Virus record (IMG/VR): IMGVR_UViG_3300025886_000011
Span: 10,357 to 74,356 of that record
Length of the DNA stretch: 64,000 bases
Strand: one strand, 5' to 3'
Origin: a virus
A program made the translations under genes and the position numbers. This document shows positions 3,021 through 59,829 of the stretch, piece after piece; the first letter of the stretch is position 1, and each line of letters begins with the position of its first letter. Below the pieces are notes generated by a model, which was given only the letters and a program-made list of their open reading frames with translations, ran no database searches and was not told the DNA's origin.

Positions 3021-3197
3021 ATGGAAAAATTTGAAGAAATTAAAGCTCTTATTGAATCAGTAGGAGAAGACGTAGATAAATTCTATGTGAAGGGAAACAA
3101 GGCTGCAGCTGTGAGAATCAGAAAAGCAATGCAGGATGTTAAAAATTTAGCACAAGAAGTAAGATTACACGTTCAAGAAACTAAGAACAATATGTAA
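3021..3197 (+). CDS. Histone H1-like Hc1-family small basic protein (58 aa, absent from ORF track)
   Basis: MEKFEEIKALIESVGEDVDKFYVKGNKAAAVRIRKAMQDVKNLAQEVRLHVQETKNNM matches the KFY.KGN.AA..R.RK.MQ..K.LAQ..R..VQ pattern of the Bacteroidota Hc1-like family. Confidence 0.85.
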   Translation: MEKFEEIKALIESVGEDVDKFYVKGNKAAAVRIRKAMQDVKNLAQEVRLHVQETKNNM

Positions 3198-3215: not shown

Positions 3216-3249
3216 AAAAGGACTATCTTTAACTAGGTAGTCCTTTTTT
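3216..3249 (+). terminator. Rho-independent terminator
   Basis: AAAAGGACTATCT-ttaact-AGGTAGTCCTTTT(TT) hairpin with U-tract after the Hc1-like gene. Confidence 0.85.
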
Positions 3250-3321: not shown

Positions 3322-3873
3322 ATGGAAAGGTGCTTAATATTAGATTTTGACGATACTTTAGTTTCTACTATAGATACTCATGCCGATTCTTGGAGGCGTG
3401 CATTAGAAAGAGTTCTTAATAGAGATATTCCAATAGAGACCATAATGGCTGATATTAATTATGGTATGGATGTTCTTTTAAAGAAATATCAATTAACAGA
3501 TAATGAATCAAAATTAGCACAAGACTATAAACGAGACATATTTTCAAAGAATCTTTACAAAACTAAAATTAATCAATTACTTTTATGGGTAATAAAAAAT
3601 TCTAATTTTGAAAAGGTTATTATGGCATCTAATTCATCTAGGGAAAATGTAGATAGAATTATGACTTATCATAATATTAGTACTGATTTATTTGATCTTA
3701 TTGTAACAAGAGATAGTGTTTTAAATAAAAAGCCGCATTCTGATATGGCAGATTTAATATTTAAAACATTTCCTGAATATGAACCAACTGATTTTTTAAT
3801 GGTTGGTGATTCAGAAGTAGATTCAACATTCGCACTTAAAAACAAAATGAAATGCATACTGGTAAAGTTTTAG
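3322..3873 (+). CDS. HAD-superfamily phosphatase
   Basis: Motif I ILDFDDTLV, KKPHSD and motif IV VGDSEVD. Confidence 0.88.
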   Translation: MERCLILDFDDTLVSTIDTHADSWRRALERVLNRDIPIETIMADINYGMDVLLKKYQLTDNESKLAQDYKRDIFSKNLYKTKINQLLLWVIKNSNFEKVIMASNSSRENVDRIMTYHNISTDLFDLIVTRDSVLNKKPHSDMADLIFKTFPEYEPTDFLMVGDSEVDSTFALKNKMKCILVKF

Positions 3874-4598
3874 TAGGAAATAGTGGAGATAGAGTATATC
3901 TTCAGGATAACAAAGTTATCAAAGAAGCAGGTGTTTATCCTATAAAGTTTAAACAACAAATGGATTGGTTACAAAACTGTACTCATCCTAATTTTATAAA
4001 GATTAAGCCTATTTCAGATACCTCATTTGAAATGAAAAAACACCCTACATGGTACGATAAAATCTGTGAACAGCCTTTAGTTAAATCAATTGAACAATTA
4101 GATGATCTTATTCATATAGTAAATGACTTTGATGGTTATGGTGCTGATGTAGATGTAAGATCTTATTTGGATAAATTAGAAGGGCGAACTGGTTATAAAT
4201 ATGAAGGTGAATTAAATGCAACATCTAGTTGGGGTTTTGTACACGGTGATTTAACAGTAAGTAATATCTTATATGATAATGATTTTATTTTTATTGATCC
4301 GCGAGGTACTGAAGAACAGAATTATTATGACTATGGAAAACTGATGCAATCCTTTGTAATGAAATATGAGGCCCATATATACAATGAAAGGAATTCTAAA
4401 TATCTTAAGTTCTGTAGAGAAGCAGAAAACATAATGTATGAATGGTATGATGAATATCAATTAAAATTCTTTTTAGCGGTCCACTTATTAGGAGCAGTAC
4501 CTTTCTTTGAATTAAATGAAAGATATGAATTAGCTGGGATGTTCCTTAAAAAAGGCCATGAATTATTTGACGAATTAGAAATTAAATATAGCAAATGA
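3852..4598 (+). CDS. APH/choline-kinase-like phosphotransferase (putative sugar kinase)
   Basis: Brenner motif HGDLTVSNIL followed by FIDPRG and YYDYGKL. Confidence 0.8.
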   Translation: MHTGKVLVGNSGDRVYLQDNKVIKEAGVYPIKFKQQMDWLQNCTHPNFIKIKPISDTSFEMKKHPTWYDKICEQPLVKSIEQLDDLIHIVNDFDGYGADVDVRSYLDKLEGRTGYKYEGELNATSSWGFVHGDLTVSNILYDNDFIFIDPRGTEEQNYYDYGKLMQSFVMKYEAHIYNERNSKYLKFCREAENIMYEWYDEYQLKFFLAVHLLGAVPFFELNERYELAGMFLKKGHELFDELEIKYSK

Positions 4599-5302
4599 GT
4601 AGAGTAAGAAAAGCAATTATCTTAGCAGCCGGGAGGTCTACTAGGTATGGATCAAATAAACTTATAGATCCAATTTTAGGAAAATCAACAATTCAGTACT
4701 GTATTGAATTCTGTATTGAAAATGGAATAGAGGATGCATATGTTACTATAAGTAAATCTGACTTCTTTTTTAAGAATAGAAATACAAAGTTATCTCATCC
4801 TATTATTGAAAGTTTATCAAAGTATAAAGAAAAGATAAACATTTGTTATGAATTCCAAAAGGATGATGAATATGGACCAGGTGCAGCAATTAAAGCATGG
4901 GAAGGTAAATTTTATGAACCTTTCTTATGTCTCTTTGGTGACAATTATTATCAAGGTAATATTGGTTTAGAATACCATGATCCGAACAATACTGTTGTTA
5001 CTTATAAGGATTACGAAACTAGAGCAAGAAATTTACAACTTGCTACTATCATAGAAGATGTGGTTATTGAAAAACCTCATGGCGTAGTAAACGGAAGATA
5101 CTTCTGCGGATATATGATATTTGCAAAAGAAGCGTTTGATAACTTAAGCAGTATTAAACTATCAAATAGAAATGAATATGAAATTACTCATCTTATAAAC
5201 TCGATGGATGTTTTAAAATTTGAAGAATTAAATATATGTTGGTATGACTTAACATACGAACAAGATAAACAAGTAATAGAAGATATTATTCAAAATTGTT
5301 AA
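4595..5302 (+). CDS. Sugar-phosphate nucleotidyltransferase
   Basis: AIILAAGRSTRY..NK, LFGDNYY, EKP and RNEYEIT motifs (RmlA/GlmU-like). Confidence 0.88.
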   Translation: MSRVRKAIILAAGRSTRYGSNKLIDPILGKSTIQYCIEFCIENGIEDAYVTISKSDFFFKNRNTKLSHPIIESLSKYKEKINICYEFQKDDEYGPGAAIKAWEGKFYEPFLCLFGDNYYQGNIGLEYHDPNNTVVTYKDYETRARNLQLATIIEDVVIEKPHGVVNGRYFCGYMIFAKEAFDNLSSIKLSNRNEYEITHLINSMDVLKFEELNICWYDLTYEQDKQVIEDIIQNC

Positions 5303-5303
5303 T

Positions 5304-6569
5304 ATGAAAGAGAATGTAAAAAAGATTGGCTTTTTTAAATTAGGTAAAGCCATAAAGTTTAATGAAAACAGCTGGAGCGCAATCGGTGGTGATTGTGAAC
5401 CTAAGCAATTAATTTGTTCAATTGCAAACCGAAATCCTAATATTGAATATTGGCTATTAAGCCCAAATGACTTAGGTAAGTTTAGAGCAAAACAAAAACC
5501 TAAAGTAAATTCTTTATTTGGCCCCCCTCCTACTGATGAACCTGTAGTTCCTAATAATATTAAGGAATTTCATTCAACTATGAAAGAGAGAAAATCTACT
5601 GATGAAACTGTTGAAATTATTCAAGGTTTAGATTTAGATTTTATTTTCTTTTATACTGGTCCAACAAGTACCGTTAATATTCCAGAGTATATTAATAAGA
5701 AGGATGGTACTGGTCAAGTTAAATCATTAGACTTCTTTAAGTATTATGCAGCTCCTATTATTAAATCAATGAATGAGTTGGAAAAGAAAGTTCCTATTGT
5801 TGGTTTACTTGTTGATAACCGTTATATACTTGCATGTAAAGATTGGGGAATTAATAATAGACCAACTTATTACTTAGCACAAAATACATTTACTAAAGAA
5901 GAACAATATTTCTGCAATCCACCCTTGCGAGATGTCAAGACTATCACATCAACATATGAATATTCAGGTATTGAAACAGTATTCTTATTAGATAAGAAAA
6001 GATATGATACTGATGAATTATTCAAAATGAAGAAAACTGATTCGTTTATGATGTTACAGAATCAAGGTAAAGGTTCTGGTGGAATGGACCGATGGGATCC
6101 GGTAAAAGAATATATTGTTGATCAAGAAATTGAGACTGATATCTATGGAAAATGGGATGATGAAATCAAGGAAAAATATCCTAAATGGTTTAAAGGAGAA
6201 ACTAGAATTGAAACAATGACTGATGAATTACTTGGTACTAAATATACATTCTGTGTACCTATTAAAGAAGGTATGGTAACATCTAAGTATGCTGAAATGC
6301 TACACTATGGTATTATACCATTCTTACATCCGTCTTACGACACTGACTTTAATGTCTTCCCTGAAGGTCATTTTATTCGATGTAAATCAGCAGAAGATTT
6401 AAAAAAGAAAATTGAATTCTTAAATGCAAACCCAGAGCATTACAAGAAATTATTTTATAACCTGCAAGAAAAGTATCTTAAGGATTCTTATTATACTGGA
6501 GAACATGTAGATAACAAGATCTGGGAATCTTATGAACACGTAACAAAAACTGAAACAATAGATGTATAA
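5304..6569 (+). CDS. GT-B glycosyltransferase resembling T4 beta-glucosyltransferase (putative DNA glycosyltransferase)
   Basis: C-terminal DIYGK..VTSKYAEMLHYGIIPFLHPSYDTDFNV..FIRCKSAEDLKKKIEFL aligns by eye with T4 BGT EFFG..ITLRVWETM..IDEEFDTKHRI..YVNNRAELIDRVNEL; LVDNRY resembles FTDIRL. Confidence 0.7.
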   Translation: MKENVKKIGFFKLGKAIKFNENSWSAIGGDCEPKQLICSIANRNPNIEYWLLSPNDLGKFRAKQKPKVNSLFGPPPTDEPVVPNNIKEFHSTMKERKSTDETVEIIQGLDLDFIFFYTGPTSTVNIPEYINKKDGTGQVKSLDFFKYYAAPIIKSMNELEKKVPIVGLLVDNRYILACKDWGINNRPTYYLAQNTFTKEEQYFCNPPLRDVKTITSTYEYSGIETVFLLDKKRYDTDELFKMKKTDSFMMLQNQGKGSGGMDRWDPVKEYIVDQEIETDIYGKWDDEIKEKYPKWFKGETRIETMTDELLGTKYTFCVPIKEGMVTSKYAEMLHYGIIPFLHPSYDTDFNVFPEGHFIRCKSAEDLKKKIEFLNANPEHYKKLFYNLQEKYLKDSYYTGEHVDNKIWESYEHVTKTETIDV

Positions 6570-7584
6570 TTCCGAAACAAAAATCCTAATCACCGGTGGT
6601 GCTGGGTTCGTTGGTACAAATTTTATTAACGATTTATTAAAAAGAGGGCACAACCCTAAATGTATTGCTGTAATTGATAATATGGAACATGGTACTTATA
6701 TACCTAAAGTCCATGATCAAATTGAAAATTTTCATAAAGTAGATATTAGAAATCAATATGTAGAAAATATAATTCAGGAATTTTCCCCTGATTATGTTTA
6801 CCACTTTGCAGGTTTAGTTTCTATTTATGATTGCCACGAAGACCCTTATGAAGCTGTAGATAATAATATCTTAGGAAGTATTAATGTAATGAACGGTTGT
6901 GTAAAGGCAGATGTAAAAAGAATTATCTTTAGTGAAACTTCTGCAGTATATGAAAATTGTGAAATGCCTAAAGAAGGATTTAATGAAAAGCAATCTGATC
7001 CTACTACAATTTATTCTACGACTAAAGCATGCCTTGCCTTATTAGCAGAATCATATCAGAGAACTAAAGGTTTAAATTATACTGCATTAAGATACTTTAA
7101 TGTTGCAGGGCCACTGCAAGATTATAATAGAACCATCCCTCCTGTATTTGCTGGATTTATTTTAAGAATTAAAGGTAATCATAACCCTATAGTATTTGGG
7201 GATTATATGAAAGCAAGAGATTATATTGATGTATCCGACGTTAACGCATTTCATATTCTTTGTATGGAAAATGAAGACACTGCAAATCAAACATTTAATT
7301 TAGGTACTGGTAAAATGACAAACCTAATGGATCTTAAAAATATGATTGGTGATATTATGGGAATAGATAAACCTGTGTTTGATCACTACGATCCGATTGC
7401 AGGTGAAGCTCTAAATATTAGAGGGGATATCTCTAAGGCTAAGTCAATGGGATGGGAACCTAAAAAAGATATCAGAGATACGATAAAAGAAACAATAGTT
7501 TACCTTGAAGAAGAAATTAACCAAGGGACCATTGATCCACTAACATTTATGGAAAATTTAGAAATTGAAAAAGTAAAAATTTAA
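6562..7584 (+). CDS. NAD-dependent NDP-sugar epimerase/dehydratase (GalE-like extended SDR)
   Basis: ILITGGAGFVG, HFAG, YSTTK (YxxxK), LRYFNVAGP, RDYIDV motifs. Confidence 0.92.
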   Translation: MYNSETKILITGGAGFVGTNFINDLLKRGHNPKCIAVIDNMEHGTYIPKVHDQIENFHKVDIRNQYVENIIQEFSPDYVYHFAGLVSIYDCHEDPYEAVDNNILGSINVMNGCVKADVKRIIFSETSAVYENCEMPKEGFNEKQSDPTTIYSTTKACLALLAESYQRTKGLNYTALRYFNVAGPLQDYNRTIPPVFAGFILRIKGNHNPIVFGDYMKARDYIDVSDVNAFHILCMENEDTANQTFNLGTGKMTNLMDLKNMIGDIMGIDKPVFDHYDPIAGEALNIRGDISKAKSMGWEPKKDIRDTIKETIVYLEEEINQGTIDPLTFMENLEIEKVKI

Positions 7585-7587
7585 TAT

Positions 7588-8850
7588 ATGGAAAAAGAAT
7601 TAAAATGGGGTACTATAATTCCACTAATTGGTGGTAGTGCTATAGGATGTAAAAAATCTGCAGGTAATGAACCGGCATTTCATTTAAGCTATGATGCATT
7701 TGCTGCTAACGAAAGTCATATCGAAAAATATTGGCCAGAAGTACCTATGTACAGATTGGATCATGAAGATTTAGATATACCTAAACAAACCTTTAATGAA
7801 GTTGATTATGTAAATTCAGTATGCCCGTGTGCAGGTTTATCACAATTAAATTCTGCAAAAGGTAGTGCTGCATCTCGAGGATCTGGTGCAACGCAGAACC
7901 AATGGATGTATAATTCATCAGAGTATATTTTAGAAAATGTAAAACCTAAAGTTCTTTGGGGTGAAAATGCACCTGGTCTTTTTACTAAGATGGGAGAAGG
8001 TGTAGTTGATAGGTTAAAGGCTATCGGTGAAAAATACGGATATAGTTTTTCGTTAATTAAAACTAATACTGAATTGCATGGAATTCCACAAAGGCGAATG
8101 AGAACATTTTATTTCTTTTGGAATACTCCAACCGTTCCTATGTTAAGTTGGAAGTTTAGAGAAAAGAAAAATCTTATTGATTATCTTAATGAAATACCGG
8201 AAGATGCTACTCATCAAGATATGTTTATGGTTGAAGGAAAGGTTACGGATCATTTTAAACCTTATGAATATGTTTTAGAAAAAGAAGGTTTAACTCATTC
8301 TGAATTTGCTGCTAAATTTAAGAAAGGTACTATTGCTCAATATTTAGAAAAAAATGAATTAATACCTGACTGCATTAAGTGGTTAGAGAAGCATTATCCA
8401 AAAAGAGGATTTTCAAATAAAAAATCTACTAAGACTTTTATTGATATGTTAGAACATCAGCAATATAAGACAAGTCAAGGATTAGGTTATTGGGATGCAT
8501 CACCACACTTCTTTCATGATTCTTTTTCTGCTCTTATTGGTAGAAATATGTTTAACGGAGTTCATCCTATAGAAAATAGATATCTCAATGTAAGAGAGAT
8601 GCTGCACTTAATGGGCCTACCTTTAGACTTTGGTATCGAAAATGCAAAGCAAGTAAATCATATCGCTCAAAATGTACCAGTAACTACTGCAATGGATATG
8701 GCTGATGAAGTAAAGAAATTTTGTAATGGAGAAGCTAAGATGACTAACTATACTTTTCTGAAGCAAGATAATACAAACCATAAAATTATTGACTCTACTG
8801 AAATTGGAGCTGAACCTAAAAAGAAGTATAAAGTAACAAATATAATTTAA
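7588..8850 (+). CDS. C5-cytosine methyltransferase-like protein with atypical SAM-binding motifs
   Basis: Motif IV CPCAGLS, VI ENAPGL, VIII GIPQRRMRTF, IX RYLNVREMLHLMGLP; motif I reads IPLIGG and motif X reads IAQNVP. Confidence 0.8.
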   Translation: MEKELKWGTIIPLIGGSAIGCKKSAGNEPAFHLSYDAFAANESHIEKYWPEVPMYRLDHEDLDIPKQTFNEVDYVNSVCPCAGLSQLNSAKGSAASRGSGATQNQWMYNSSEYILENVKPKVLWGENAPGLFTKMGEGVVDRLKAIGEKYGYSFSLIKTNTELHGIPQRRMRTFYFFWNTPTVPMLSWKFREKKNLIDYLNEIPEDATHQDMFMVEGKVTDHFKPYEYVLEKEGLTHSEFAAKFKKGTIAQYLEKNELIPDCIKWLEKHYPKRGFSNKKSTKTFIDMLEHQQYKTSQGLGYWDASPHFFHDSFSALIGRNMFNGVHPIENRYLNVREMLHLMGLPLDFGIENAKQVNHIAQNVPVTTAMDMADEVKKFCNGEAKMTNYTFLKQDNTNHKIIDSTEIGAEPKKKYKVTNII

Positions 8851-8861
8851 TTATAAAAACT

Positions 8862-9878
8862 ATGAAAGATAACGCGTTAGCAATAGGAATATCAAGCCTT
8901 GAGTTTACAAACATCTTATGTAGCTATTATCCTAAAGGAGTAAAAGAAAAGTTTGATATTTACCTATTTGTAGATGATAGTAAAATAGATTTAGATAAAC
9001 TACAAGGTATTTTTAAAGAGCATGATTTAGACATTTTTAAAAATGCAAAAATTATTATTTTAAATGACCTATATGATTACTATATAGAAAAACATGGATA
9101 TAAAGGTAAGGCGAGAGACTTCTTATTAAGCCATGGCTGTTTATTTAAAATCTTAATGCCTATATATCTAAAAGAAAAATTTGGAGTTAAGAGAACTCTT
9201 GTATCAGATGATGATGTATTCATTTTAAATGACATCAGCTATATGTGGGATGAGTACGAAGAGTTTGGTATTAAAAAAGAAAATTTATTCTATATTAGAA
9301 ATAAAGATAAGCATGAAGTAATGGCTGCCTTTAATGAAATATTTGAATCAGATTTTACTTTAGATGAAATGAATGCTCTTTCAATAAATGCAGGTAATAT
9401 AATTTATGGAGAAGATCCTAAATTAGAATATTACTTTGAAAGATTTATGAAGCACTCTTTTGTCCATCATCAGTATTTTAATTTTACCGGATATACCAGT
9501 TGGACTGTAGAACAAAGATTCCATCATTTTAATATTCATAGGTATTTATCAGAAGGGAGAAAGGTTAAATTTACAGAAAGTAAAGATTTAAGGTTAATGC
9601 AAAATAGAGATAAGATGATGAAAGCTGGTACGCCACCTGACAAATATCTTAAAGTAGTTGTACCATCAATTATTCATTATGCAATAGGAACCAAAAAACC
9701 TTTATGGTTAAATGATTTTTTGCCTGGACTAGAATGGAGGTATGGATTTGTATATGAAGCTAAGTACGAACTAAAAGGTATCCTATATAACAAATCATGG
9801 ACACCTCCACCTTTTAAAAGTGTACAGAAAACCGGATTTAATTTAAAATCAGATTTAAAAACAAATTCGGTGTTTTAG
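8862..9878 (+). CDS. GT8-like (GT-A) glycosyltransferase
   Basis: SDDDVFILNDI (DxD), INAG, EQ and IIHYAIGTKKPLW (GT8 H..g..KPW) motifs. Confidence 0.7.
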   Translation: MKDNALAIGISSLEFTNILCSYYPKGVKEKFDIYLFVDDSKIDLDKLQGIFKEHDLDIFKNAKIIILNDLYDYYIEKHGYKGKARDFLLSHGCLFKILMPIYLKEKFGVKRTLVSDDDVFILNDISYMWDEYEEFGIKKENLFYIRNKDKHEVMAAFNEIFESDFTLDEMNALSINAGNIIYGEDPKLEYYFERFMKHSFVHHQYFNFTGYTSWTVEQRFHHFNIHRYLSEGRKVKFTESKDLRLMQNRDKMMKAGTPPDKYLKVVVPSIIHYAIGTKKPLWLNDFLPGLEWRYGFVYEAKYELKGILYNKSWTPPPFKSVQKTGFNLKSDLKTNSVF

Positions 9879-9880
9879 CT

Positions 9881-9907
9881 TAAACTAAGTAACAATAATC
9901 AATATAA
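9881..9907 (+). promoter_or_regulatory. Middle-type promoter (clamp)
   Basis: TAAAC-N16-ATATAA(TAATAA). Confidence 0.7.
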
Positions 9908-9929
9908 TAATAAACAAATAATATTTTAA

Positions 9930-10679
9930 ATGGAAACAAAAATTAACAAAATTGACGGTTATGAATTAAGTTCATTCGTTCGCAAATTACTTCCAATTGA
10001 CAAATTCATTTTTATGAAAATCGCTAAAGAAGGTACTGTATCTTCTGTCTATTTTCCTGAGAGAGATGCCGTAAAATTGGTTAACACACCAACCTCTGAT
10101 ATCTTTGATGCTGACATTAAAGAACCAGTAAAGGTTAGTTTTTATAACGGTACTAAAGTTATTGATGCATTAAGTCATTTTAATGGAGATGTACAGGGTC
10201 GTATTAAATATACCGAGTATGATGGAGAATTAATGGCAAGTGATTTTATTTTAGAAAATGAAGATCTTCAAATTAATTTGGCATGTACAGATCCTTCATT
10301 ATCTTTTATGGAAATGAGCAAAGAAGAAACTGATAGAGCATTTGATGTTGAATCTAAAATGTTTGATTTTGATTTACTCACAACACATGTAGATAAAATG
10401 AAATCATTATTTAACCTTGATAAAGATGAGGATATCTTTACTCTTTACATTGGAGAGAAAGGAATCAATATCAAAGGTACTTCTTATGATGCTACATTAT
10501 GTCACTCTTATGATTCAAATGTAGAAAAAGGTGCTAAGGTTGTGATATACAAAAAGTATATTAATCTATTAGACAAAGAAAATTACAAGGTAAGTGTTTG
10601 TGAAAATAAAGTAGTATTTAAATCTCTTGATACTAATACACACTTAACTGTTGCTGTTGCTATAACAGACGAGGATTAA
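9930..10679 (+). CDS. gp45: Sliding clamp (gp45-like)
   Basis: 249 aa acidic alpha/beta protein with two-domain clamp-like pattern; replication context; middle-type promoter. Confidence 0.6.
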   Translation: METKINKIDGYELSSFVRKLLPIDKFIFMKIAKEGTVSSVYFPERDAVKLVNTPTSDIFDADIKEPVKVSFYNGTKVIDALSHFNGDVQGRIKYTEYDGELMASDFILENEDLQINLACTDPSLSFMEMSKEETDRAFDVESKMFDFDLLTTHVDKMKSLFNLDKDEDIFTLYIGEKGINIKGTSYDATLCHSYDSNVEKGAKVVIYKKYINLLDKENYKVSVCENKVVFKSLDTNTHLTVAVAITDED

Positions 10680-10692
10680 TACTACGTCGTTA

Positions 10693-11634
10693 ATGGAAAA
10701 AATTGACATTGTATTACAAGGACCTTATAATAATGATTTTGTTAATGAAATCGCATTACATTATTTAGCATTAGCCTTTGTCAATAATATAATTATTTCT
10801 CATCACACATCTGATACTAAAGAAAGACTATTACATAACAACATAAAATTCATCGCTACCGATAAAGTTAAACCTATCGGTAGTGGTAATGAAAATTTAC
10901 AAATAGTATCTTCTTTAGCAGGTATAAAAGCAACATCTACTAAGTTCATTGTAAAAATGAGAAATGATCAAAAGTATACATTAGATTCTATGAAGACAAT
11001 GTATGACTTTTATAATCAGAACTCTGAAAGAAAACTTTCTTTTACAAATGATGCATCTAAACCTTATAATAGAATATGTGTGGCAGGTAATTTTTCACAC
11101 TTACCTTTTCATCCTAGAGATCATATTTTTTGGGGAAATAAAAATGACCTAATTGATTTATTTAGTTTACCTTTAGATAATTATGATATTTACCAAAGGT
11201 TAGATAATCACGATGATGACATAGTTGATGTTATTAATAGGAAAGATGCTAATTGGATTTTAACTGATCCGCACCACTTACCTTCTGAAGTTGTAATGAA
11301 AAATAATTTATCATGGATATTTTATGAGCAGCCGCCAGAGGAAAATTATAGTATGCCGTTAATAAGAACTGAGGCAAGGATAGGTTTAAACTATATAGCT
11401 AAATTTAACCCAAAGGTGAATATGTTTTTATCTAATCCTAAAGAATATGTACACGATGGCGCTCCTAACTACCATGAAGCAGTAAACATAAGTACTGATT
11501 TAACACCTAAGATTTTTAAATCCTTCCCTAGGGCCGGTATTGATTTATCATGTCCAAAAAATAATTGGAGTAATTATCCATACGACCAGCAATATGAACA
11601 GTATGGCGAAAGATGGCATGAAAATAATGTTTAA
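10693..11634 (+). CDS. WavE-family LPS synthesis protein / GT-A-like
   Basis: DIVLQGP, NENLQIVSSLAGI, VKMRNDQ and FHPRDHIFWG motifs. Confidence 0.7.
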   Translation: MEKIDIVLQGPYNNDFVNEIALHYLALAFVNNIIISHHTSDTKERLLHNNIKFIATDKVKPIGSGNENLQIVSSLAGIKATSTKFIVKMRNDQKYTLDSMKTMYDFYNQNSERKLSFTNDASKPYNRICVAGNFSHLPFHPRDHIFWGNKNDLIDLFSLPLDNYDIYQRLDNHDDDIVDVINRKDANWILTDPHHLPSEVVMKNNLSWIFYEQPPEENYSMPLIRTEARIGLNYIAKFNPKVNMFLSNPKEYVHDGAPNYHEAVNISTDLTPKIFKSFPRAGIDLSCPKNNWSNYPYDQQYEQYGERWHENNV

Positions 11635-11659
11635 ACTAAGTATAAACTTTACCATATAA
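11632..11659 (+). promoter_or_regulatory. Middle-type promoter (PolB)
   Basis: TAAAC-N17-ATATAA(AAATAA). Confidence 0.7.
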
Positions 11660-11668
11660 AAATAAAAA

Positions 11669-12787
11669 ATGACAGAGGAATTACAAAAAATTAACGAGGA
11701 AGCTTCTAAATTTTACAATTATGAACAAGCTGTAAAATTAATGCTTAACTCTATTTATGGCGCATTTGGTAATCCTTACTTTTATTTCTTCAACGTTGAT
11801 ATTGCAGAAACTATTACACTCCAAGGTAAAGATGCAATTCTTTACACCGAAAACTTAGTTAACAAATATTTTAAAGAATATTGGCATAAAGATACTGCTG
11901 CCCACCAAGCTATGGGAATAACCGTAACTGGTAAAATTGAAAAACCTGTTGGTATTTATATTGACACGGATTCGGTATATGTAAAGTTTGAGGAACTAAT
12001 TAAAAAATCTGAAGGGTGGGAAGGTGATGAAAAAGAATTCATTTTAAAGTTATATGAAGTAAGGCTTAAAGCTTATATAGAAAAAATTCTACAAGTTTAT
12101 GCTGATAATAATAATGCAGAAAACTTTTTATCATTTGAATTAGAAAGTATTGCTAAGAATGCAATATGGTTGGCTAAGAAAAAATACATGCAGAATATTG
12201 TTTGGAAGGATCCGGATATTCATTATGACGATCTTTCTAAAATTAGTTCTAAAGGATTTGAAATTATACAGTCATCCACTCCAATTTTTGCTAGAGAAAA
12301 ACTAAAAGAATTGCTAACATATATATTTTCGGTTAGTGAATTAGATATGGGAGCCTTTGCTGCATTGCTTAAAGATATAAAAAGACAATTTAGATTAGCA
12401 AATGTTGATCAAATTTGTTTTTCACGAAAGGTTAATAATTATCAAAAGTACATTGTAAATGATTATGAACAATTTGAGATTGCATCAAAATGCCCAATCG
12501 GCGTAAGATCTGCAGGTTATCATAATTACCTTTTAAATAATTCTGGCCTTAAAGGAAAATATCAACCTTTAGGAAATGGCGAAAAATGTAAAATGTATTT
12601 TTCTACTGATAACTCGTGTGACGTGTTTGCATTTGCGCCTGGTGATTATCCTTATGAATTTGCCCCTAAGATTGATTATGATAGGCAATTTGAAAAAACT
12701 ATATTAGATCCTATTAATCGTGTAGTAACTGCGATGGGTTTTAAATCCTTTAATAGAAATCTGATTTATACAACAAGCTTATTTTAA
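11669..12787 (+). CDS. gp43B: Family B DNA polymerase, C-terminal subunit of a split gp43
   Basis: Motif B KLMLNSIYG, motif C YIDTDSVY and KKKY; exonuclease and motif A absent. Confidence 0.9.
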   Translation: MTEELQKINEEASKFYNYEQAVKLMLNSIYGAFGNPYFYFFNVDIAETITLQGKDAILYTENLVNKYFKEYWHKDTAAHQAMGITVTGKIEKPVGIYIDTDSVYVKFEELIKKSEGWEGDEKEFILKLYEVRLKAYIEKILQVYADNNNAENFLSFELESIAKNAIWLAKKKYMQNIVWKDPDIHYDDLSKISSKGFEIIQSSTPIFAREKLKELLTYIFSVSELDMGAFAALLKDIKRQFRLANVDQICFSRKVNNYQKYIVNDYEQFEIASKCPIGVRSAGYHNYLLNNSGLKGKYQPLGNGEKCKMYFSTDNSCDVFAFAPGDYPYEFAPKIDYDRQFEKTILDPINRVVTAMGFKSFNRNLIYTTSLF

Positions 12788-53653: not shown

Positions 53654-55531
53654 ATGGCAGTAAGCATTGAAAAGAAATATCAGAAACTTACAGATACAGA
53701 ACATGTATTACTTAGACCAGGTATGTACATTGGTTCTGTTAAACCTCATACTGAAGAAGTTTATCTTTTAGATAGAAGGAGTTGGAAATTGGTACCTAAA
53801 GAACTTACCTATAATCCAGGTTTCTTAAAACTCTTTGATGAGATCGTATCCAATTCGGTTGATGAACATAAAAGAAATCCTAAGCTTAATCAAGTAAAAG
53901 TTACTATTGATATTTCTACAAATAAAATATCCATTTGGGATAACGGTGGAATTCCTGTAGAAATTCATAAAAAGTATAATGAGTGGGTACCTGAAATGAT
54001 TTTCAGTAATTTGAAAACTGGAAGTAATTTTGACGATACTGAAGAAAGAACCGTCGTAGGAACAAATGGCGTAGGTAGTACATTAACAAATATTTTTAGT
54101 AAAGAATTTACAATTGACACATGTGATAAGAAGAAAAGATTTACCCAAACCTTTTCAAATAATATGGCAAAGAAAACTAAACCTGCCATAAAATCACAGA
54201 AGAAAGGATTTACTGAAATTTCATACATTGCAGATTTTAAAAGATTTGGTATGAGTAAGATTGACAAAGCTTCAATTCAAATGATTGAAAAAAGGCTCTA
54301 TGATATTGCTGCATGTAATCCTAAATTAAAAATCTGGTTAAATGAAGATCCTATTACTTTTAAATCTTTTAAAGAATACTCTGAATTATATACCACTCCA
54401 GTATTTTATGAGCAATCAGAAAATTGGCAAATAGGTATAGGTCATTCTACTTCAGGATTTAAAGCAATCTCATTTGTAAATTCTGTTGAAACAAAAGATG
54501 GCGGTAAGCATGTAGATAACATTACTTGGCAAATTACACAATTCCTTAGGGATAAGATTAAAAGAAAGCATAGAGTTGATGTAAAGCCATCAGAACTAAA
54601 AAATCACTTATACCTTTTTATTAATAGTACAATTATTAACCCAGCCTTTTCGTCTCAAACAAAAGAGAAGCTTATTACTGAACCTAAAGACTTCGGTAGT
54701 ATTCATGTACTTTCTGATAAGACATTAAGACAAGTTTTAAATTCAGAAATAATTCAATCAGTATTAGATTGGATTAAACAGAAGCAAGCTGCTGATGAAA
54801 GATCTAAACTTAGAAAATTAAATAAAGGTTTAGATAAGAAAAAGGTTGTAAAATTAATTGATGCAAAAAAGAGAGGTGATAGAAGCAACTGTACTCTTGC
54901 AATCTTTGAAGGGGATTCTGCATCATCTGCATTTAGGCAATATAGAAATCCTAATATGCAAGGCGCATTTCCACTTAGAGGTAAATTTGTAAATGTAAGA
55001 GAATCTATTCCTTCTAAGGTTGTACAAAACAAAGAAGTACAATCTCTTATGGCTGCATTAGGTTTAAAGATAGGTCATGAACCTAAAGATTTAAGATACG
55101 GTAAAATATTATTGTATACTGATGCTGATGTAGATGGTAATTCTATTTCTGCTTTGTTAATTAATTTCTTAGGTAAATATTGGCCAGAATTATTTGAACA
55201 AGGTAGAGTCTTAAAGGTAGAAACTCCTCTTATGGTTGCTAAGAAAGGTAAAGAGACATTGAGTTTTTATTCTGATGATAATTATAAAGAATGGGAATCT
55301 AAACAAAGATCATTATCATCTTGGTCAATTGAATATAAGAAAGGTCTTGCTGCCCTGGAGAATGAAGAGTACCAGGAAATCATTAGTAATCCTAAAACCT
55401 TTACTTTAACTAAAGGCAAAGATTTTGATAATACATTAGATACATGGTTCTCCAAAGATTCTGAACCAAGAAAGAAAAAGATTCTAGGAGAAGAATTAAT
55501 TTATAAGACAAGCGATAAATCATTATTTTAA
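53654..55531 (+). CDS. gp39: Type IIA topoisomerase ATPase/TOPRIM subunit (gp39+gp60 in one ORF)
   Basis: HVLLRPGMYIG, EI..NSVD, DNG.GIP, GTNGVG, EGDSA, PLRGK, DADVDG. Confidence 0.93.
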   Translation: MAVSIEKKYQKLTDTEHVLLRPGMYIGSVKPHTEEVYLLDRRSWKLVPKELTYNPGFLKLFDEIVSNSVDEHKRNPKLNQVKVTIDISTNKISIWDNGGIPVEIHKKYNEWVPEMIFSNLKTGSNFDDTEERTVVGTNGVGSTLTNIFSKEFTIDTCDKKKRFTQTFSNNMAKKTKPAIKSQKKGFTEISYIADFKRFGMSKIDKASIQMIEKRLYDIAACNPKLKIWLNEDPITFKSFKEYSELYTTPVFYEQSENWQIGIGHSTSGFKAISFVNSVETKDGGKHVDNITWQITQFLRDKIKRKHRVDVKPSELKNHLYLFINSTIINPAFSSQTKEKLITEPKDFGSIHVLSDKTLRQVLNSEIIQSVLDWIKQKQAADERSKLRKLNKGLDKKKVVKLIDAKKRGDRSNCTLAIFEGDSASSAFRQYRNPNMQGAFPLRGKFVNVRESIPSKVVQNKEVQSLMAALGLKIGHEPKDLRYGKILLYTDADVDGNSISALLINFLGKYWPELFEQGRVLKVETPLMVAKKGKETLSFYSDDNYKEWESKQRSLSSWSIEYKKGLAALENEEYQEIISNPKTFTLTKGKDFDNTLDTWFSKDSEPRKKKILGEELIYKTSDKSLF

Positions 55532-58743: not shown

Positions 58744-58921
58744 AGCAGAAGATTTATTATACGAGGCTCACCATGAAGGTATTAGAGATGAGGTTCTTGC
58801 TGAGAGCCGTCGATTATATCAGGATAAAAAGAAGTATGAACACATGGAGTTTGGTGATAGAATAGAAATAGCACTAAGAAATGTTAGAGAGAATAAATTA
58901 CAAAGTAAATTAAAAAAATGA
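58736..58921 (+). CDS. Hypothetical protein
   Basis: 61 aa ORF coupled to both neighbours. Confidence 0.55.
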   Translation: MCKAEDLLYEAHHEGIRDEVLAESRRLYQDKKKYEHMEFGDRIEIALRNVRENKLQSKLKK

Positions 58922-59829
58922 GAGTATTTAAAGGAGAGACTTTTGCAGAAGCATACAACTATGCTCTAAGTAGTATTATACATAATCCTACATACATATC
59001 ATCCCCTAGAGGTATGAAGATATTTGAAATGACTGATGCAGCGATCGTTGTAGAAGATCCTACATATTGTCTTTATGAAAATGATCGTAGGAGTAGTCAA
59101 TTTAAATATATTGCAGCAGAATTGGTTTGGTATTTTACTGGCCGTAATGATGCTGACTTTATTACACCGTATGCAAAGTTCTGGGATCAAATTAAAAATA
59201 AAGACGGTACTGTTAACTCTGCTTATGGTAATCTTATCTTTACCGAAGAATTAGAAGATGGTCGTAATCAATATCGATGGGCATTAGATTCCTTAATTCA
59301 AGATAAAGATTCAAGGCAAGCAATTATACATTTTAATAAGCCCTCTCATCAATGGAATGGAAATAGAGATTTTGTTTGTACTCTTAATGGCATATTTCAA
59401 ATAAGAGATAATAAATTAAACTTTACTATTGATATGAGATCTAACGATCTTATATTAGGTACTCCTACTGATGTTGCATTCTTTTGTCTTTTACAAATTC
59501 AAATGTTAGAGCATCTTCGTAATCATTACCCTGAATTAGAATTAGGTACATATACTCATATTGCACATTCGCTTCATTTATATGAAAGGCACTTCGATCT
59601 TGCAAGCGAGATGTTAATGAAATCGTTTAATCCTCAATCATTTCCAAATATGACAGAGTTTTTAATTGATCCTAACGGTAAATCATTAGATGGTTTAAAA
59701 CAATTAGAAGATGAAATGATTCAGAGTAATGATGTTGTATTTAAAGGAAAATCTAATTTTGAACCACAACCTCATGATGATCTTTTACATCAGTGGATAT
59801 CCGACGCAATTTTTAATAAAGCCCTTTAA
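58918..59829 (+). CDS. gp42: dCMP hydroxymethylase (T4 gp42-like thymidylate synthase superfamily member)
   Basis: ELVWY, NSAYG, DSRQA, DFVCT (catalytic Cys) and MRSNDLILGTPTD, with Asp at the position that is Asn in dUMP-specific TS (T4 gp42: DFMCT, MRSNDVVFGFRND). Confidence 0.85.
   Translation: MRVFKGETFAEAYNYALSSIIHNPTYISSPRGMKIFEMTDAAIVVEDPTYCLYENDRRSSQFKYIAAELVWYFTGRNDADFITPYAKFWDQIKNKDGTVNSAYGNLIFTEELEDGRNQYRWALDSLIQDKDSRQAIIHFNKPSHQWNGNRDFVCTLNGIFQIRDNKLNFTIDMRSNDLILGTPTDVAFFCLLQIQMLEHLRNHYPELELGTYTHIAHSLHLYERHFDLASEMLMKSFNPQSFPNMTEFLIDPNGKSLDGLKQLEDEMIQSNDVVFKGKSNFEPQPHDDLLHQWISDAIFNKAL

What the first reader, a model, noticed from the sequence alone, without database searches (positions are those of the whole stretch)
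7588..8850. C5-methyltransferase fold with remodelled SAM site in a phage whose C5 should already be occupied
Seen: the catalytic motifs are intact (PC, ENxxG, QxRxR), but motif I is IPLIGG rather than FxGxGG and motif X is IAQNVP rather than GNAV. The gene sits between an epimerase and a GT8. Established: C5-MTases attack C6, can add or remove aldehydes and couple nucleophiles to hmC in vitro without SAM, and a phage homolog using carboxy-SAM has been reported. Inference: if hmC replaces C, ordinary methylation has no substrate. The enzyme may instead use another cofactor, activate hmC for conjugation, modify residual C, or target host DNA.
Basis: partly seen in the sequence, partly recalled or inferred. 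Interest (0 to 1): 0.75.

Follow-up and report, generated by a model that had tools for sequence, protein, structure and literature searches.

The report
Cytosine methylase relative in hmC phages
This phage gene encodes an intact but unusual relative of DNA cytosine-5 methylases that, across many unrelated phages, sits inside the gene sets that replace cytosine with sugar-coated hydroxymethylcytosine, so its usual target position should already be filled and its real job is unknown and testable.

Summary
ORF 7588-8850 (+, 420 aa) is a C5-cytosine methyltransferase homologue (Pfam 1e-19; AF2 pLDDT 90; best folds MET1, HaeIII, HhaI, CmoX). It keeps the catalytic Cys81, ENA and QxRxR. Motif I is IPLIGG and motif X is AQNVP.

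These changes are the signature of a large family (at least 450 clusters at 50% identity) found almost only in viruses.

- This phage encodes a T4 gp42-type dCMP hydroxymethylase, a gp56-type dCTPase, kinases and a BGT-fold glycosyltransferase.
- Of 31 non-redundant homologue groups, 22 have a gp42-type enzyme on the same contig. The other nine are fragments.
- All six complete or near-complete genomes have one, including the cultured phages S-TIM5, vB_Psh_XG4 and Bacillus phage G.
- 11 of 14 further metagenome-bin contigs have one too.
- The gene next to the homologue is a DNA glycosyltransferase (AGT, BGT-like or TAGT) or an hmU-DNA-kinase homologue.
- No TET and no CmoA were found.

The function is unresolved. 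My best guess (0.4) is Cys-C6 chemistry on hmC in phage DNA. The close rival (0.35) is ordinary SAM methylation of leftover cytosine. I found no publication on this linkage. It is a new variant of a known kind.

The parts
7588..8850 (+). C5-cytosine methyltransferase homologue, 420 aa, of the IPLIGG / xQNVP subfamily
   Evidence: ORF. PF00145 1.2e-19. AF2 model pLDDT 90.5, pTM 0.88. Foldseek best hits MET1, M.HaeIII, DIM2, M.HhaI and CmoX, E about 1e-12.
7618..7635 (+). Motif I variant I-P-L-I-G-G (residues 11-16) where canonical enzymes have F-x-G-x-G-G
   Evidence: Read from the translation. I11, P12, G15 invariant and L13, G16 at least 90% conserved in 50 homologues. The N-terminal 83-residue profile finds no C5-MTase in the PDB.
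7822..7830 (+). Motif IV C-P-C with the catalytic Cys81
   Evidence: C81 invariant. Aligned to the PC motif of HhaI.
7963..7977 (+). Motif VI E-N-A-P-G (E126 is the Glu that protonates cytosine N3 in canonical enzymes)
   Evidence: E126 invariant. Aligned to ENV of HhaI and HaeIII.
8089..8103 (+). Motif VIII Q-R-R-M-R
   Evidence: Q168, R170 and R172 invariant. Aligned to QxRxR of HhaI and HaeIII.
8662..8679 (+). Motif X variant I-A-Q-N-V-P; Gln361 takes the place of the canonical Asn (Arg in CmoX)
   Evidence: HaeIII alignment. xQNVP in most family representatives. CmoX residue from PMC12783734.
8818..8847 (+). C-terminal tail KKKYKVTNII, a possible sliding-clamp-binding peptide (inferred only)
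   Evidence: Similar hydrophobic tails on the DNA polymerase C-part (IYTTSLF), topoisomerase II (KTSDKSLF) and the 338-aa neighbour (LKTNSVF). Homologues end in QTSLF, SKSLF, QLKLF or xLF. Binding was not shown.
5304..6569 (+). T4 beta-glucosyltransferase-like (GT-B) candidate DNA hmC glycosyltransferase
   Evidence: AF2 pLDDT 76. The six best PDB folds are T4 BGT, E 1e-9. Homologues sit next to the MTase homologue in 12 of 31 groups, median 905 bp away.
6562..7584 (+). NAD-dependent sugar-nucleotide epimerase/dehydratase
   Evidence: PF01370 4.4e-46. GalE-like. An SDR gene abuts the MTase homologue in 10 of 31 groups.
8862..9878 (+). 338-aa protein, possibly a GT8-like (GT-A) glycosyltransferase
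   Evidence: No Pfam or PHROG hit. Language-model neighbours carry Glyco_transf_8; this is a lead only.
3852..5302 (+). APH-like kinase (3852-4598) and sugar-1-phosphate nucleotidyltransferase (4595-5302), a probable NDP-sugar supply
   Evidence: The two are fused in one protein in L004 and in phage XG4.
3273..3302 (+). Sigma-70-like promoter candidate (TTGAAA-18-TATAAT) heading the tightly packed operon 3322-12787, just after a terminator at 3216-3247
   Evidence: Placement is suggestive, but such matches are no more frequent than in shuffled sequence.
9930..10679 (+). 249-aa protein, probably the gp45-type sliding clamp
   Evidence: Language-model neighbours carry gp45-slide_C; lead only. 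It lies before the polymerase gene and is conserved in L007.
58918..59829 (+). gp42-type dCMP hydroxymethylase (thymidylate synthase homologue)
   Evidence: Best PDB matches are MilA CMP hydroxymethylase 1e-22 and T4 gp42 4e-22, against ThyA 1e-11. RDFVCT...MRSNDLILGTPTD matches T4 SDFMCT...MRSNDVVFGFRND: Asp at ThyA N177, and D169 kept (criteria from PMC13326640).
57646..58743 (+). Guanylate-kinase-like and thymidylate-kinase-like genes next to the hydroxymethylase
   Evidence: phrog_1815 1.5e-32 and phrog_761 1.8e-16. The TMK-like gene travels with the gp42-type gene in 7 other loci.

Best explanation
Shown: the gene encodes a folded member of the DNA cytosine-C5 methyltransferase superfamily with all catalytic residues present. 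It belongs to a large branch found almost only in viruses. That branch is defined by [I/V]PL[I/V]GG in motif I, QNxW in place of RGxL after motif IV, and xQNVP in motif X.

Shown: this branch is a fixed companion of T4-type hydroxymethylcytosine cassettes. These hold a gp42-type dCMP hydroxymethylase plus a DNA glycosyltransferase or an hmU-DNA-kinase homologue, often with a dCTPase and a dNMP kinase.

Inferred: in this phage cytosine enters DNA as hmC. The enzyme is made early with the sugar-nucleotide and glycosyltransferase genes and works on phage DNA, possibly tethered to the clamp. It flips out an hmC at its own recognition sequence, and Cys81 attacks C6 as in every C5-methyltransferase. 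In the adduct the hydroxymethyl group becomes labile.

The net result would be a sequence-specific replacement or remodelling of the 5-substituent. One outcome is loss of formaldehyde followed by methyl transfer, giving 5mC marks in an hmC genome. Another is coupling of the exocyclic methylene to another group held in the remodelled cofactor pocket. Which outcome occurs is not known.
For: 1. Catalytic residues are invariant and the fold is confident.

2. This phage has a T4-type replacement kit: a gp42-type enzyme, a gp56-type dCTPase 35-36% identical to T-even dCTP pyrophosphatases with E 1e-23, kinases and a BGT-fold glycosyltransferase.

3. The linkage survives wide divergence and gene shuffling.
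- A gp42-signature gene lies within 10 kb in 18 of 31 non-redundant groups and on the same contig or genome in 22 of 31. The other 9 are fragments.
- All six complete or near-complete genomes have it: S-TIM5, XG4, Bacillus phage G, G001, G002, G010.
- 11 of 14 independent metagenome-bin contigs have it.
- Any TS-like match occurs in only 3.4% of 50,697 phage records.

4. The adjacent gene changes type, yet is almost always an enzyme that acts on hydroxymethyl-pyrimidine DNA: AGT 3e-75 and 2e-11, TAGT 7e-18, BGT-like, or HMUDK_hel 1e-11 and 3e-7.

5. No TET/JBP above cut-off in 32 records, so the known methylase-then-oxidase route is not the reason for the linkage.

6. The family is almost absent from cellular genomes: 14 loci in 185,579 species genomes, all metagenome bins. 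It was not seen beside restriction genes.

7. The cofactor-side motifs I, V and X are the ones that changed.

8. Ordinary C5-methyltransferases already attack hmC slowly. They lose formaldehyde and then methylate (PMC11347137).
Against: - No chemistry was measured, and the cofactor site could not be inspected at atomic level.
- The motif II acid (E42, always E or D) and mostly D58 are kept, so an adenosyl cofactor such as SAM probably still binds.
- The same motif set occurs in 600-700-aa eukaryote-like homologues (copepod transcriptome, some with zf-CXXC or C2H2), where an hmdCTP pathway is not expected. This argues that the fold can do plain methylation of C.
- A gp56-type dCTPase was not detected in S-TIM5, phage G, G001, G002 or G010, so some of these phages may keep unmodified C.
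- T-even phages manage hmC without such an enzyme.
- Glycosyltransferases already use the hydroxyl, so a second hmC-directed enzyme is not obviously needed.
- Tandem paralogues (L057) look like ordinary multi-specificity protection.
Confidence: 0.4

Rival explanations
1. It is an ordinary SAM-dependent 5-methylcytosine methyltransferase. Replacement of C by hmC is incomplete or delayed in these phages. The enzyme methylates the cytosines that stay unmodified at its recognition sites, in phage DNA or possibly in host or competitor DNA. Every cytosine in those sites then carries some C5 group.
For: - All catalytic motifs and the ribose-binding acid are kept.
- Asn to Gln in motif X is a conservative change.
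- Eukaryote-like homologues with zinc fingers share the motif set.
- A gp56-type dCTPase was not found in five other genomes with the enzyme.
- Tandem paralogues with different variable regions fit protection at several sequences.
Against: - This phage, XG4, G020 and G029 do have a gp56-type dCTPase, adjacent to the cassette in XG4. In T4 that enzyme leaves essentially no C.
- A general protective methylase should also spread to phages without gp42 and to cellular restriction-modification systems. Neither was seen.
- The linkage persists while every other cassette part is swapped.
Confidence: 0.35
2. It is an alkyl transferase that uses a SAM analogue or another part of SAM (carboxymethyl from Cx-SAM, aminocarboxypropyl, or similar) on unmodified cytosine. 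This would be a CmoX-like route to a new base.
For: The changed residues line the methionine and transferable-group side of the cofactor: motif I Gly to Leu and motif X Asn to Gln. There is a precedent in which one motif X residue sets Cx-SAM use (PMC12783734).
Against: - Gln361 is not the Arg or Lys that binds the carboxylate, and SPPC is VCPC.
- No CmoA in the 77-kb record.
- It still needs a free C5-H, which the gp42 and dCTPase pathway removes.
Confidence: 0.08
3. It is an RNA (tRNA or rRNA) cytosine-5 methyltransferase that uses the DNA-methylase mechanism, as DNMT2 does. The absence of cytosine from phage DNA would then be irrelevant.
For: It resolves the substrate paradox without new chemistry. 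DNMT2 shows that the fold can switch to tRNA (established knowledge).
Against: - It is embedded in DNA-modification operons beside DNA glycosyltransferases, polymerase, clamp and UvsX.
- The variable domain is large and of DNA-methylase type, and the best fold matches are DNA-bound enzymes.
- Nothing links it to tRNA genes.
Confidence: 0.07
4. It is a hitch-hiking orphan methylase with no functional tie to hmC. It merely shares a mobile early-gene island with the modification genes.
For: Phage accessory genes often cluster in variable islands. This cluster sits between the two halves of a split DNA polymerase gene.
Against: - Co-occurrence holds when the genes are 13 to about 87 kb apart: this window, phage G and G002.
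- It holds across phage types with different polymerases (family B, Pol III alpha) and different glycosyltransferases.
- Strong purifying conservation of about 40 invariant residues.
Confidence: 0.05

Closest known systems
Canonical bacterial DNA C5-cytosine methyltransferases (M.HhaI, M.HaeIII; Pfam PF00145)
   Same: Same fold and domain order. Catalytic Cys in a PC motif, ENx Glu, QxRxR, and the motif IX RE...G.P..F.
   Different: - Motif I is IPLIGG, not FxGxGG.
- The RGxLF stretch after motif IV is QNxWM.
- Motif X is AQNVP, not GNAVP.
- The N-terminal third is too diverged for a profile to find any solved methylase.
- The family is found almost only in viruses, not in restriction-modification systems.
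- It is always found with a dCMP hydroxymethylase.
CmoX, phage DNA cytosine C5-carboxymethyltransferase (PDB 8YF3; PMC12783734)
   Same: A phage C5-methylase homologue whose cofactor choice is set at the motif X Asn position, and the first step of a hypermodification. It is a structural match (rank 10).
   Different: Gln, not Arg, at that position. VCPC, not SPPC. No CmoA or CmoY nearby. It is linked to gp42 and glycosyltransferases instead.
TET-coupled phage C5-methyltransferases (MT + 5mYOX + GT cassettes; PMC8256090, bioRxiv 10.1101/2023.12.21.572611)
   Same: A phage C5-methylase gene beside DNA glycosyltransferases, including a TAGT-family one in L083. The end product is a glycosylated hydroxymethylcytosine.
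   Different: There, the methylase makes 5mC that a TET-like oxidase turns into hmC after replication. Here no TET/JBP reaches the cut-off in 32 records, and hmC comes before replication from a gp42-type enzyme. The methylase step is therefore not needed to make hmC.
T4 hmC pathway (gp42, gp56, gp1, alpha- and beta-glucosyltransferases)
   Same: Homologues of gp42, gp56 and BGT or AGT are present. In L078, L080 and L083 the order gp42 - GT - (MTase) - uvsX mirrors T4's 42 - beta-gt - uvsX.
   Different: T4 has no C5-methylase homologue. Here one is inserted into the cassette.
Thymidine hypermodification (5-hmdU DNA kinase plus aGPT-Pplase-type transferases)
   Same: This is a 'works like' comparison only. 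In L048 and L060 an HMUDK-family kinase lies directly upstream of the methylase homologue. That suggests activation of the hydroxymethyl group followed by substitution.
   Different: The base would be cytosine, not uracil. The substituting enzyme would be a C5-methylase fold, not a glycosylase-like fold. This window itself has no such kinase. Nothing here was tested.

Membership tests
DNA C5-cytosine methyltransferase superfamily (PF00145) | Score over the curated family threshold and a class I methyltransferase fold with an inserted target-recognition domain | tested here: met
   71.4 bits against a cut-off of 22. Foldseek probability 1.00 to MET1, HaeIII and HhaI.
DNA C5-cytosine methyltransferase superfamily (PF00145) | Catalytic motifs IV (PC), VI (ENV) and VIII (QxRxR) | tested here: met
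   C79-P80-C81, E126-N127-A128 and Q168-x-R170-x-R172, invariant in 50 homologues.
DNA C5-cytosine methyltransferase superfamily (PF00145) | Canonical SAM-binding motifs I (FxGxGG) and X (GN[AS]V) | tested here: not met
   IPLIGG and AQNVP. This is family-wide.
DNA C5-cytosine methyltransferase superfamily (PF00145) | Binds SAM and transfers methyl to C5 of cytosine in DNA | not testable with these tools
   The motif II acid E42 is kept and D58 is mostly kept. No coordinates or docking were available.
CmoX carboxymethyltransferases | Arg at the position of HhaI N304, and an SPPC motif | tested here: not met
   Gln361 and VCPC.
CmoX carboxymethyltransferases | A phage CmoA (Cx-SAM synthase) in the genome neighbourhood | tested here: not met
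   No TIGR00740 match in the 76,973-bp record, which is only 29% complete.
TET-coupled phage C5-methyltransferases | An adjacent TET/JBP (5mYOX) dioxygenase | tested here: not met
   None in the own record. None over the cut-off in 32 records with homologues.
T4-type pre-replicative hmC pathway (property of the phage) | A dCMP hydroxymethylase with Asp at ThyA N177, D169 kept, and a T4-like D-x-x-C-T motif | tested here: met
   criteria from PMC13326640. The product (hydroxymethyl rather than methyl) is inferred.
T4-type pre-replicative hmC pathway (property of the phage) | A gp56-type dCTPase to exclude dCTP | tested here: met
   L090:1294-1788 is 35-36% identical over 97% of its length to annotated T-even dCTP pyrophosphatases, E 1e-23 to 1e-25.
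T4-type pre-replicative hmC pathway (property of the phage) | A DNA hmC glycosyltransferase | tested here: inconclusive
   The fold of 5304-6569 best matches T4 BGT, E 1e-9, TM 0.5-0.6, model pLDDT 76. The substrate was not tested.

The most novel reading that the evidence does not exclude
The IPLIGG/xQNVP enzymes are a new class of DNA hypermodification catalysts. They take 5-hydroxymethylcytosine, or its phosphorylated form made by HMUDK-like kinases, as substrate. They use the methylase Cys-C6 adduct to expel the oxygen leaving group. They then couple the exocyclic methylene to a co-substrate held in the remodelled former SAM pocket. This would be the cytosine counterpart of the substitution step in thymidine hypermodification, and it would yield bases not yet described in marine and soil phages.
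Probability: 0.2. Interest if true: 0.9.

Novelty: new variant of a known kind. Interest (0 to 1): 0.72.

Why it matters
Phage DNA hypermodification is currently described as two separate routes. One is pre-replicative: a thymidylate-synthase homologue makes hmdCTP. The other is post-replicative: methylase, then TET. Here a methylase homologue is a constant member of the pre-replicative route, where its textbook substrate should not exist. It occurs in hundreds of sequence clusters from marine, freshwater and soil phages.

Either outcome is informative:
- The enzymes may carry out new chemistry on hmC. C5-methylases show such chemistry only as a slow side reaction in vitro, and it would be useful for hmC mapping tools.
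- Alternatively, these phages may keep a mosaic of C and hmC and need a second layer of protection. That would change how such genomes are read.

Three cultured phages carry the enzyme (S-TIM5, vB_Psh_XG4, Bacillus phage G), so the question can be settled at the bench.

The eukaryote-like fusions to CXXC and C2H2 fingers also hint that this viral methylase branch was taken up by marine eukaryotes.

Tried and rejected
- Single-sequence phmmer against the PDB found nothing. A family profile was needed.
- A profile of the N-terminal 83 residues (motifs I-III) found no methylase in the PDB even at E 10. Motif I to III residues could therefore only be mapped by eye and from the model's secondary structure.
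- Model coordinates are not exposed, so no cofactor docking or pocket analysis was possible.
- Complex prediction with the 45-residue C-terminal tail of the enzyme and three copies of the putative clamp (9930-10679) gave no verdict: score 0.30, mark 0.34. It says nothing either way.
- TET/JBP: absent from the own record. One sub-threshold hit in 32 records (L061 contig, 13 bits) is a small generic 2OG-Fe(II) oxygenase. I rejected it as a TET.
- CmoA: absent.
- MazG and PRA-PH searches of the own record gave only the weak hit that led to the gp56-type dCTPase.
- I considered a second-cysteine (CPC) redox idea and dropped it. A quarter of the representatives have PPC.
- Literature: four searches and six papers read gave no report of a C5-methylase tied to gp42-type pathways. 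Iyer et al. 2013 (NAR) could not be fetched, so prior mention there cannot be excluded.
- I ran no matched control with canonical phage C5-methylases. The base rate used is the 3.4% of phage records with any TS-like match.
Full report
**The object**

The window is part of a 76,973-bp IMG/VR virus record that CheckV rates 29% complete. Its GC content is about 30%. It encodes T4-superfamily replication and virion genes: UvsX, a gp41-type helicase, gp46-like, portal, prohead protease, major head protein and clamp loader.

ORF 7588-8850 (+) encodes 420 aa. It matches Pfam DNA_methylase at 1.2e-19 and phrog_116. An AlphaFold2 model built on 50 homologues is confident (pLDDT 90.5, pTM 0.88). Its best structural matches are all DNA C5-methyltransferases: MET1, M.HaeIII, DIM2, M.HhaI, ZMET2, DNMT1 and CmoX.

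**The motifs**

The catalytic residues are all present and invariant in 50 homologues: Cys81 in C-P-C, Glu126 in E-N-A-P-G, and Q168-x-R170-x-R172.

The cofactor side is different.
- Motif I is I-P-L-I-G-G.
- The canonical RGxLF stretch after motif IV is A-x-Q-N-x-W-M.
- Motif X is I-A-Q-N-V-P. It aligns to I-G-N-A-V-P of HaeIII, so Gln361 replaces the Asn. That Asn is Arg in the carboxy-SAM enzyme CmoX (PMC12783734).

A profile of the N-terminal 83 residues finds no solved methylase at all.

An acidic residue after an invariant Asn (N41-E42, always E or D) and a mostly conserved Asp58 sit where motifs II and III would be. An adenosyl-type cofactor is therefore still plausible. 'Remodelled' is fair; 'lost' would not be.

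**A family trait, almost confined to viruses**

There are 2,086 homologues at 90% clustering. In a library of 1.84 billion representatives there are 450 clusters at 50% identity with E at most 1e-30. The motif set holds across them.

Only 14 loci turned up in one genome for each of 185,579 prokaryotic species. All 14 are in metagenome bins.

Among 50,697 phage records only six phages have it: Pseudoalteromonas phage vB_Psh_XG4, cyanophages S-TIM5, S-TIM54, S-TIM61 and S-TIM66, and more distantly Bacillus phage G gp301.

**Is C5 already occupied in this phage?**

The thymidylate-synthase homologue at 58918-59829 matches CMP and dCMP hydroxymethylases (MilA 1e-22, T4 gp42 4e-22) far better than thymidylate synthases (1e-11). 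It has three diagnostic features (criteria from PMC13326640):
- Asp where ThyA has Asn177.
- D169 is kept, the residue that 5-hydroxy-dCMP synthases change to Asn.
- The motif D-F-V-C-T, as in T4's D-F-M-C-T.

TMK- and GMK-like kinases flank it.

Just upstream of the window, next to the N-terminal half of a split family-B polymerase, lies a 164-aa protein. It is 35-36% identical over 97% of its length to T-even dCTP pyrophosphatases.

The 421-aa protein at 5304-6569 folds like T4 beta-glucosyltransferase; the six best PDB matches are all BGT. Around it sit genes for making a nucleotide sugar: a HAD phosphatase, an APH-like kinase, a nucleotidyltransferase and an epimerase.

This is a full T4-type kit for glycosylated hmC. 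That the DNA really lacks C is an inference.

I fetched 80 viral contigs, several contigs that encode exact homologues, and 14 genome-bin contigs.

After collapsing at 70% identity there are 31 groups.
- A gene with the gp42 signature lies within the 10-kb flanks in 18 groups.
- It lies on the same contig or genome in 22 groups.
- The other nine groups are all fragments of 4-76 kb.

All six complete or nearly complete genomes have one:
- S-TIM5, 2.4 kb away.
- XG4, in one compact cluster with a BGT-like gene and the dCTPase.
- Bacillus phage G, 13 kb away and beside an annotated alpha-glucosyltransferase.
- Three jumbo-phage contigs of 293, 360 and 389 kb.

In the independent genome-bin set the figure is 11 of 14. 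For scale, any TS-like match occurs in 3.4% of phage records.

The gene next to the methylase homologue varies. It can be:
- BGT-like;
- T4 alpha-glucosyltransferase family (3e-75);
- TET-associated glycosyltransferase family;
- UDP-glucose dehydrogenase;
- a second paralogue of the methylase homologue;
- in two lineages, a homologue of the 5-hmdU DNA kinase.

An SDR epimerase abuts it in 10 groups. No TET/JBP enzyme reaches threshold in 32 records, and no CmoA is present.

The tie to the pre-replicative hmC pathway is therefore real. It is not explained by either known methylase-first route.

**What it may do**

The chemistry common to the fold is attack of the catalytic Cys on C6 of a flipped-out cytosine.

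With C5 carrying CH2OH, ordinary methylases are known to lose formaldehyde slowly and then methylate (PMC11347137). From the same adduct they can exchange the hydroxyl for other nucleophiles in vitro (established knowledge; I did not verify it in a paper here).

A family that is always kept with gp42, never seen in cellular restriction systems, and changed exactly around the cofactor is most simply explained by work on hmC-DNA. The HMUDK-like kinases directly upstream in L048 and L060 suggest an activate-then-substitute scheme in those lineages.

The counter-evidence is substantial.
- The ribose-binding acid is kept.
- 600-700-aa homologues from a copepod transcriptome and from marine samples, some fused to CXXC or C2H2 fingers, share the whole motif set. 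There, plain methylation of C is the natural reading.
- A gp56-type dCTPase was not found in five of the other genomes, though MazG or dUTPase genes lie near the hydroxymethylase in some. Some of these phages may therefore keep unmodified C for a normal methylase to cover.

I put hmC-directed chemistry at 0.40, ordinary methylation of leftover cytosine at 0.35, and the rest on other cofactors, RNA targets or hitch-hiking.

**Compared with what is known**

It is a member of the C5-methylase superfamily by fold and catalytic motifs. It fails the canonical motif I and X tests.

It is not a CmoX: wrong residue, wrong motif, no CmoA. It is not a TET-coupled methylase: no TET.

Searches of the paper library found the two-route picture of pyrimidine hypermodification. 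They found only a passing note that 'methyltransferases' occur near glycosyltransferases (bioRxiv 10.1101/2023.12.21.572611). Nothing on this linkage turned up. One relevant 2013 survey could not be read.

**Verdict**

It is a new variant of a known kind, and three cultured phages make it directly testable.

Noticed in passing
P0041, P0083, P0075, P0055, P0073 (homologues, not in the window): Homologues of 600-700 aa at about 55% identity come from the copepod Neocalanus flemingeri transcriptome (EukProt, several isoforms) and from many short marine contigs. Some are fused to zf-CXXC or C2H2 fingers, and all keep the IPLIGG/CQNVP motif set. A eukaryote, or something living in one, may have taken up this viral methylase branch.
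   Followed up: partly
upstream of the window (L090:2385-3230) and window 11669-12787: The family-B DNA polymerase is split. The N-terminal (exonuclease) part lies upstream of the window. The C-terminal part lies about 15 kb downstream. The whole sugar and DNA-modification cluster sits between the two halves.
   Followed up: partly
window 8827-8847, 12767-12784, 55499-55528, 9855-9875: The methylase homologue (YKVTNII), polymerase C-part (YTTSLF), topoisomerase II large subunit (YKTSDKSLF) and the 338-aa neighbour (LKTNSVF) end in similar short hydrophobic tails. Many family members end in xLF. This may be a shared clamp-binding peptide. Not shown.
   Followed up: partly
L048:3612-14086 and L060:2551-14118: These hmC-type cassettes lack a recognisable glycosyltransferase. 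They hold an HMUDK-like DNA kinase directly upstream of the methylase homologue, a myo-inositol-1-phosphate-synthase-like gene, an FkbM-type methyltransferase, an SDR, a thymidine kinase and a DHH phosphoesterase. They may make an undescribed cytosine hypermodification.
   Followed up: partly
L057:9974-12410: Two tandem paralogues of the methylase homologue. Both are IPLIGG/xQNVP type, with different variable regions.
   Followed up: no
L090:414-1250 and L090:1792-2394 (same record, upstream of the window): An Fpg/Nei-type DNA glycosylase, and a class I Methyltransf_24 / O-methyltransferase-like gene that lies between the dCTPase and the polymerase N-part.
   Followed up: no
window 3022-3196: A small ORF resembling the Hc1 histone-like protein, also called as PF07432 in the related contig L007. 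It is followed by a strong terminator hairpin at 3216-3247.
   Followed up: no
L070:12555-13457: One linked hydroxymethylase homologue reads MRSNC instead of MRSND at the position of ThyA D169. Changes at this residue mark a change of product in other phages.
   Followed up: no
L113 (Bacillus phage G, NC_023719.1 213465-226337): gp301 is a distant member (FIFGGS, AQGVP). It lies 3 kb from the annotated alpha-glucosyltransferase gp306 and near the glucose-1-phosphate thymidylyltransferase gp309. The genome also has a gp42-type second TS at 233481-234188. Phage G DNA may carry glycosylated hmC.
   Followed up: partly
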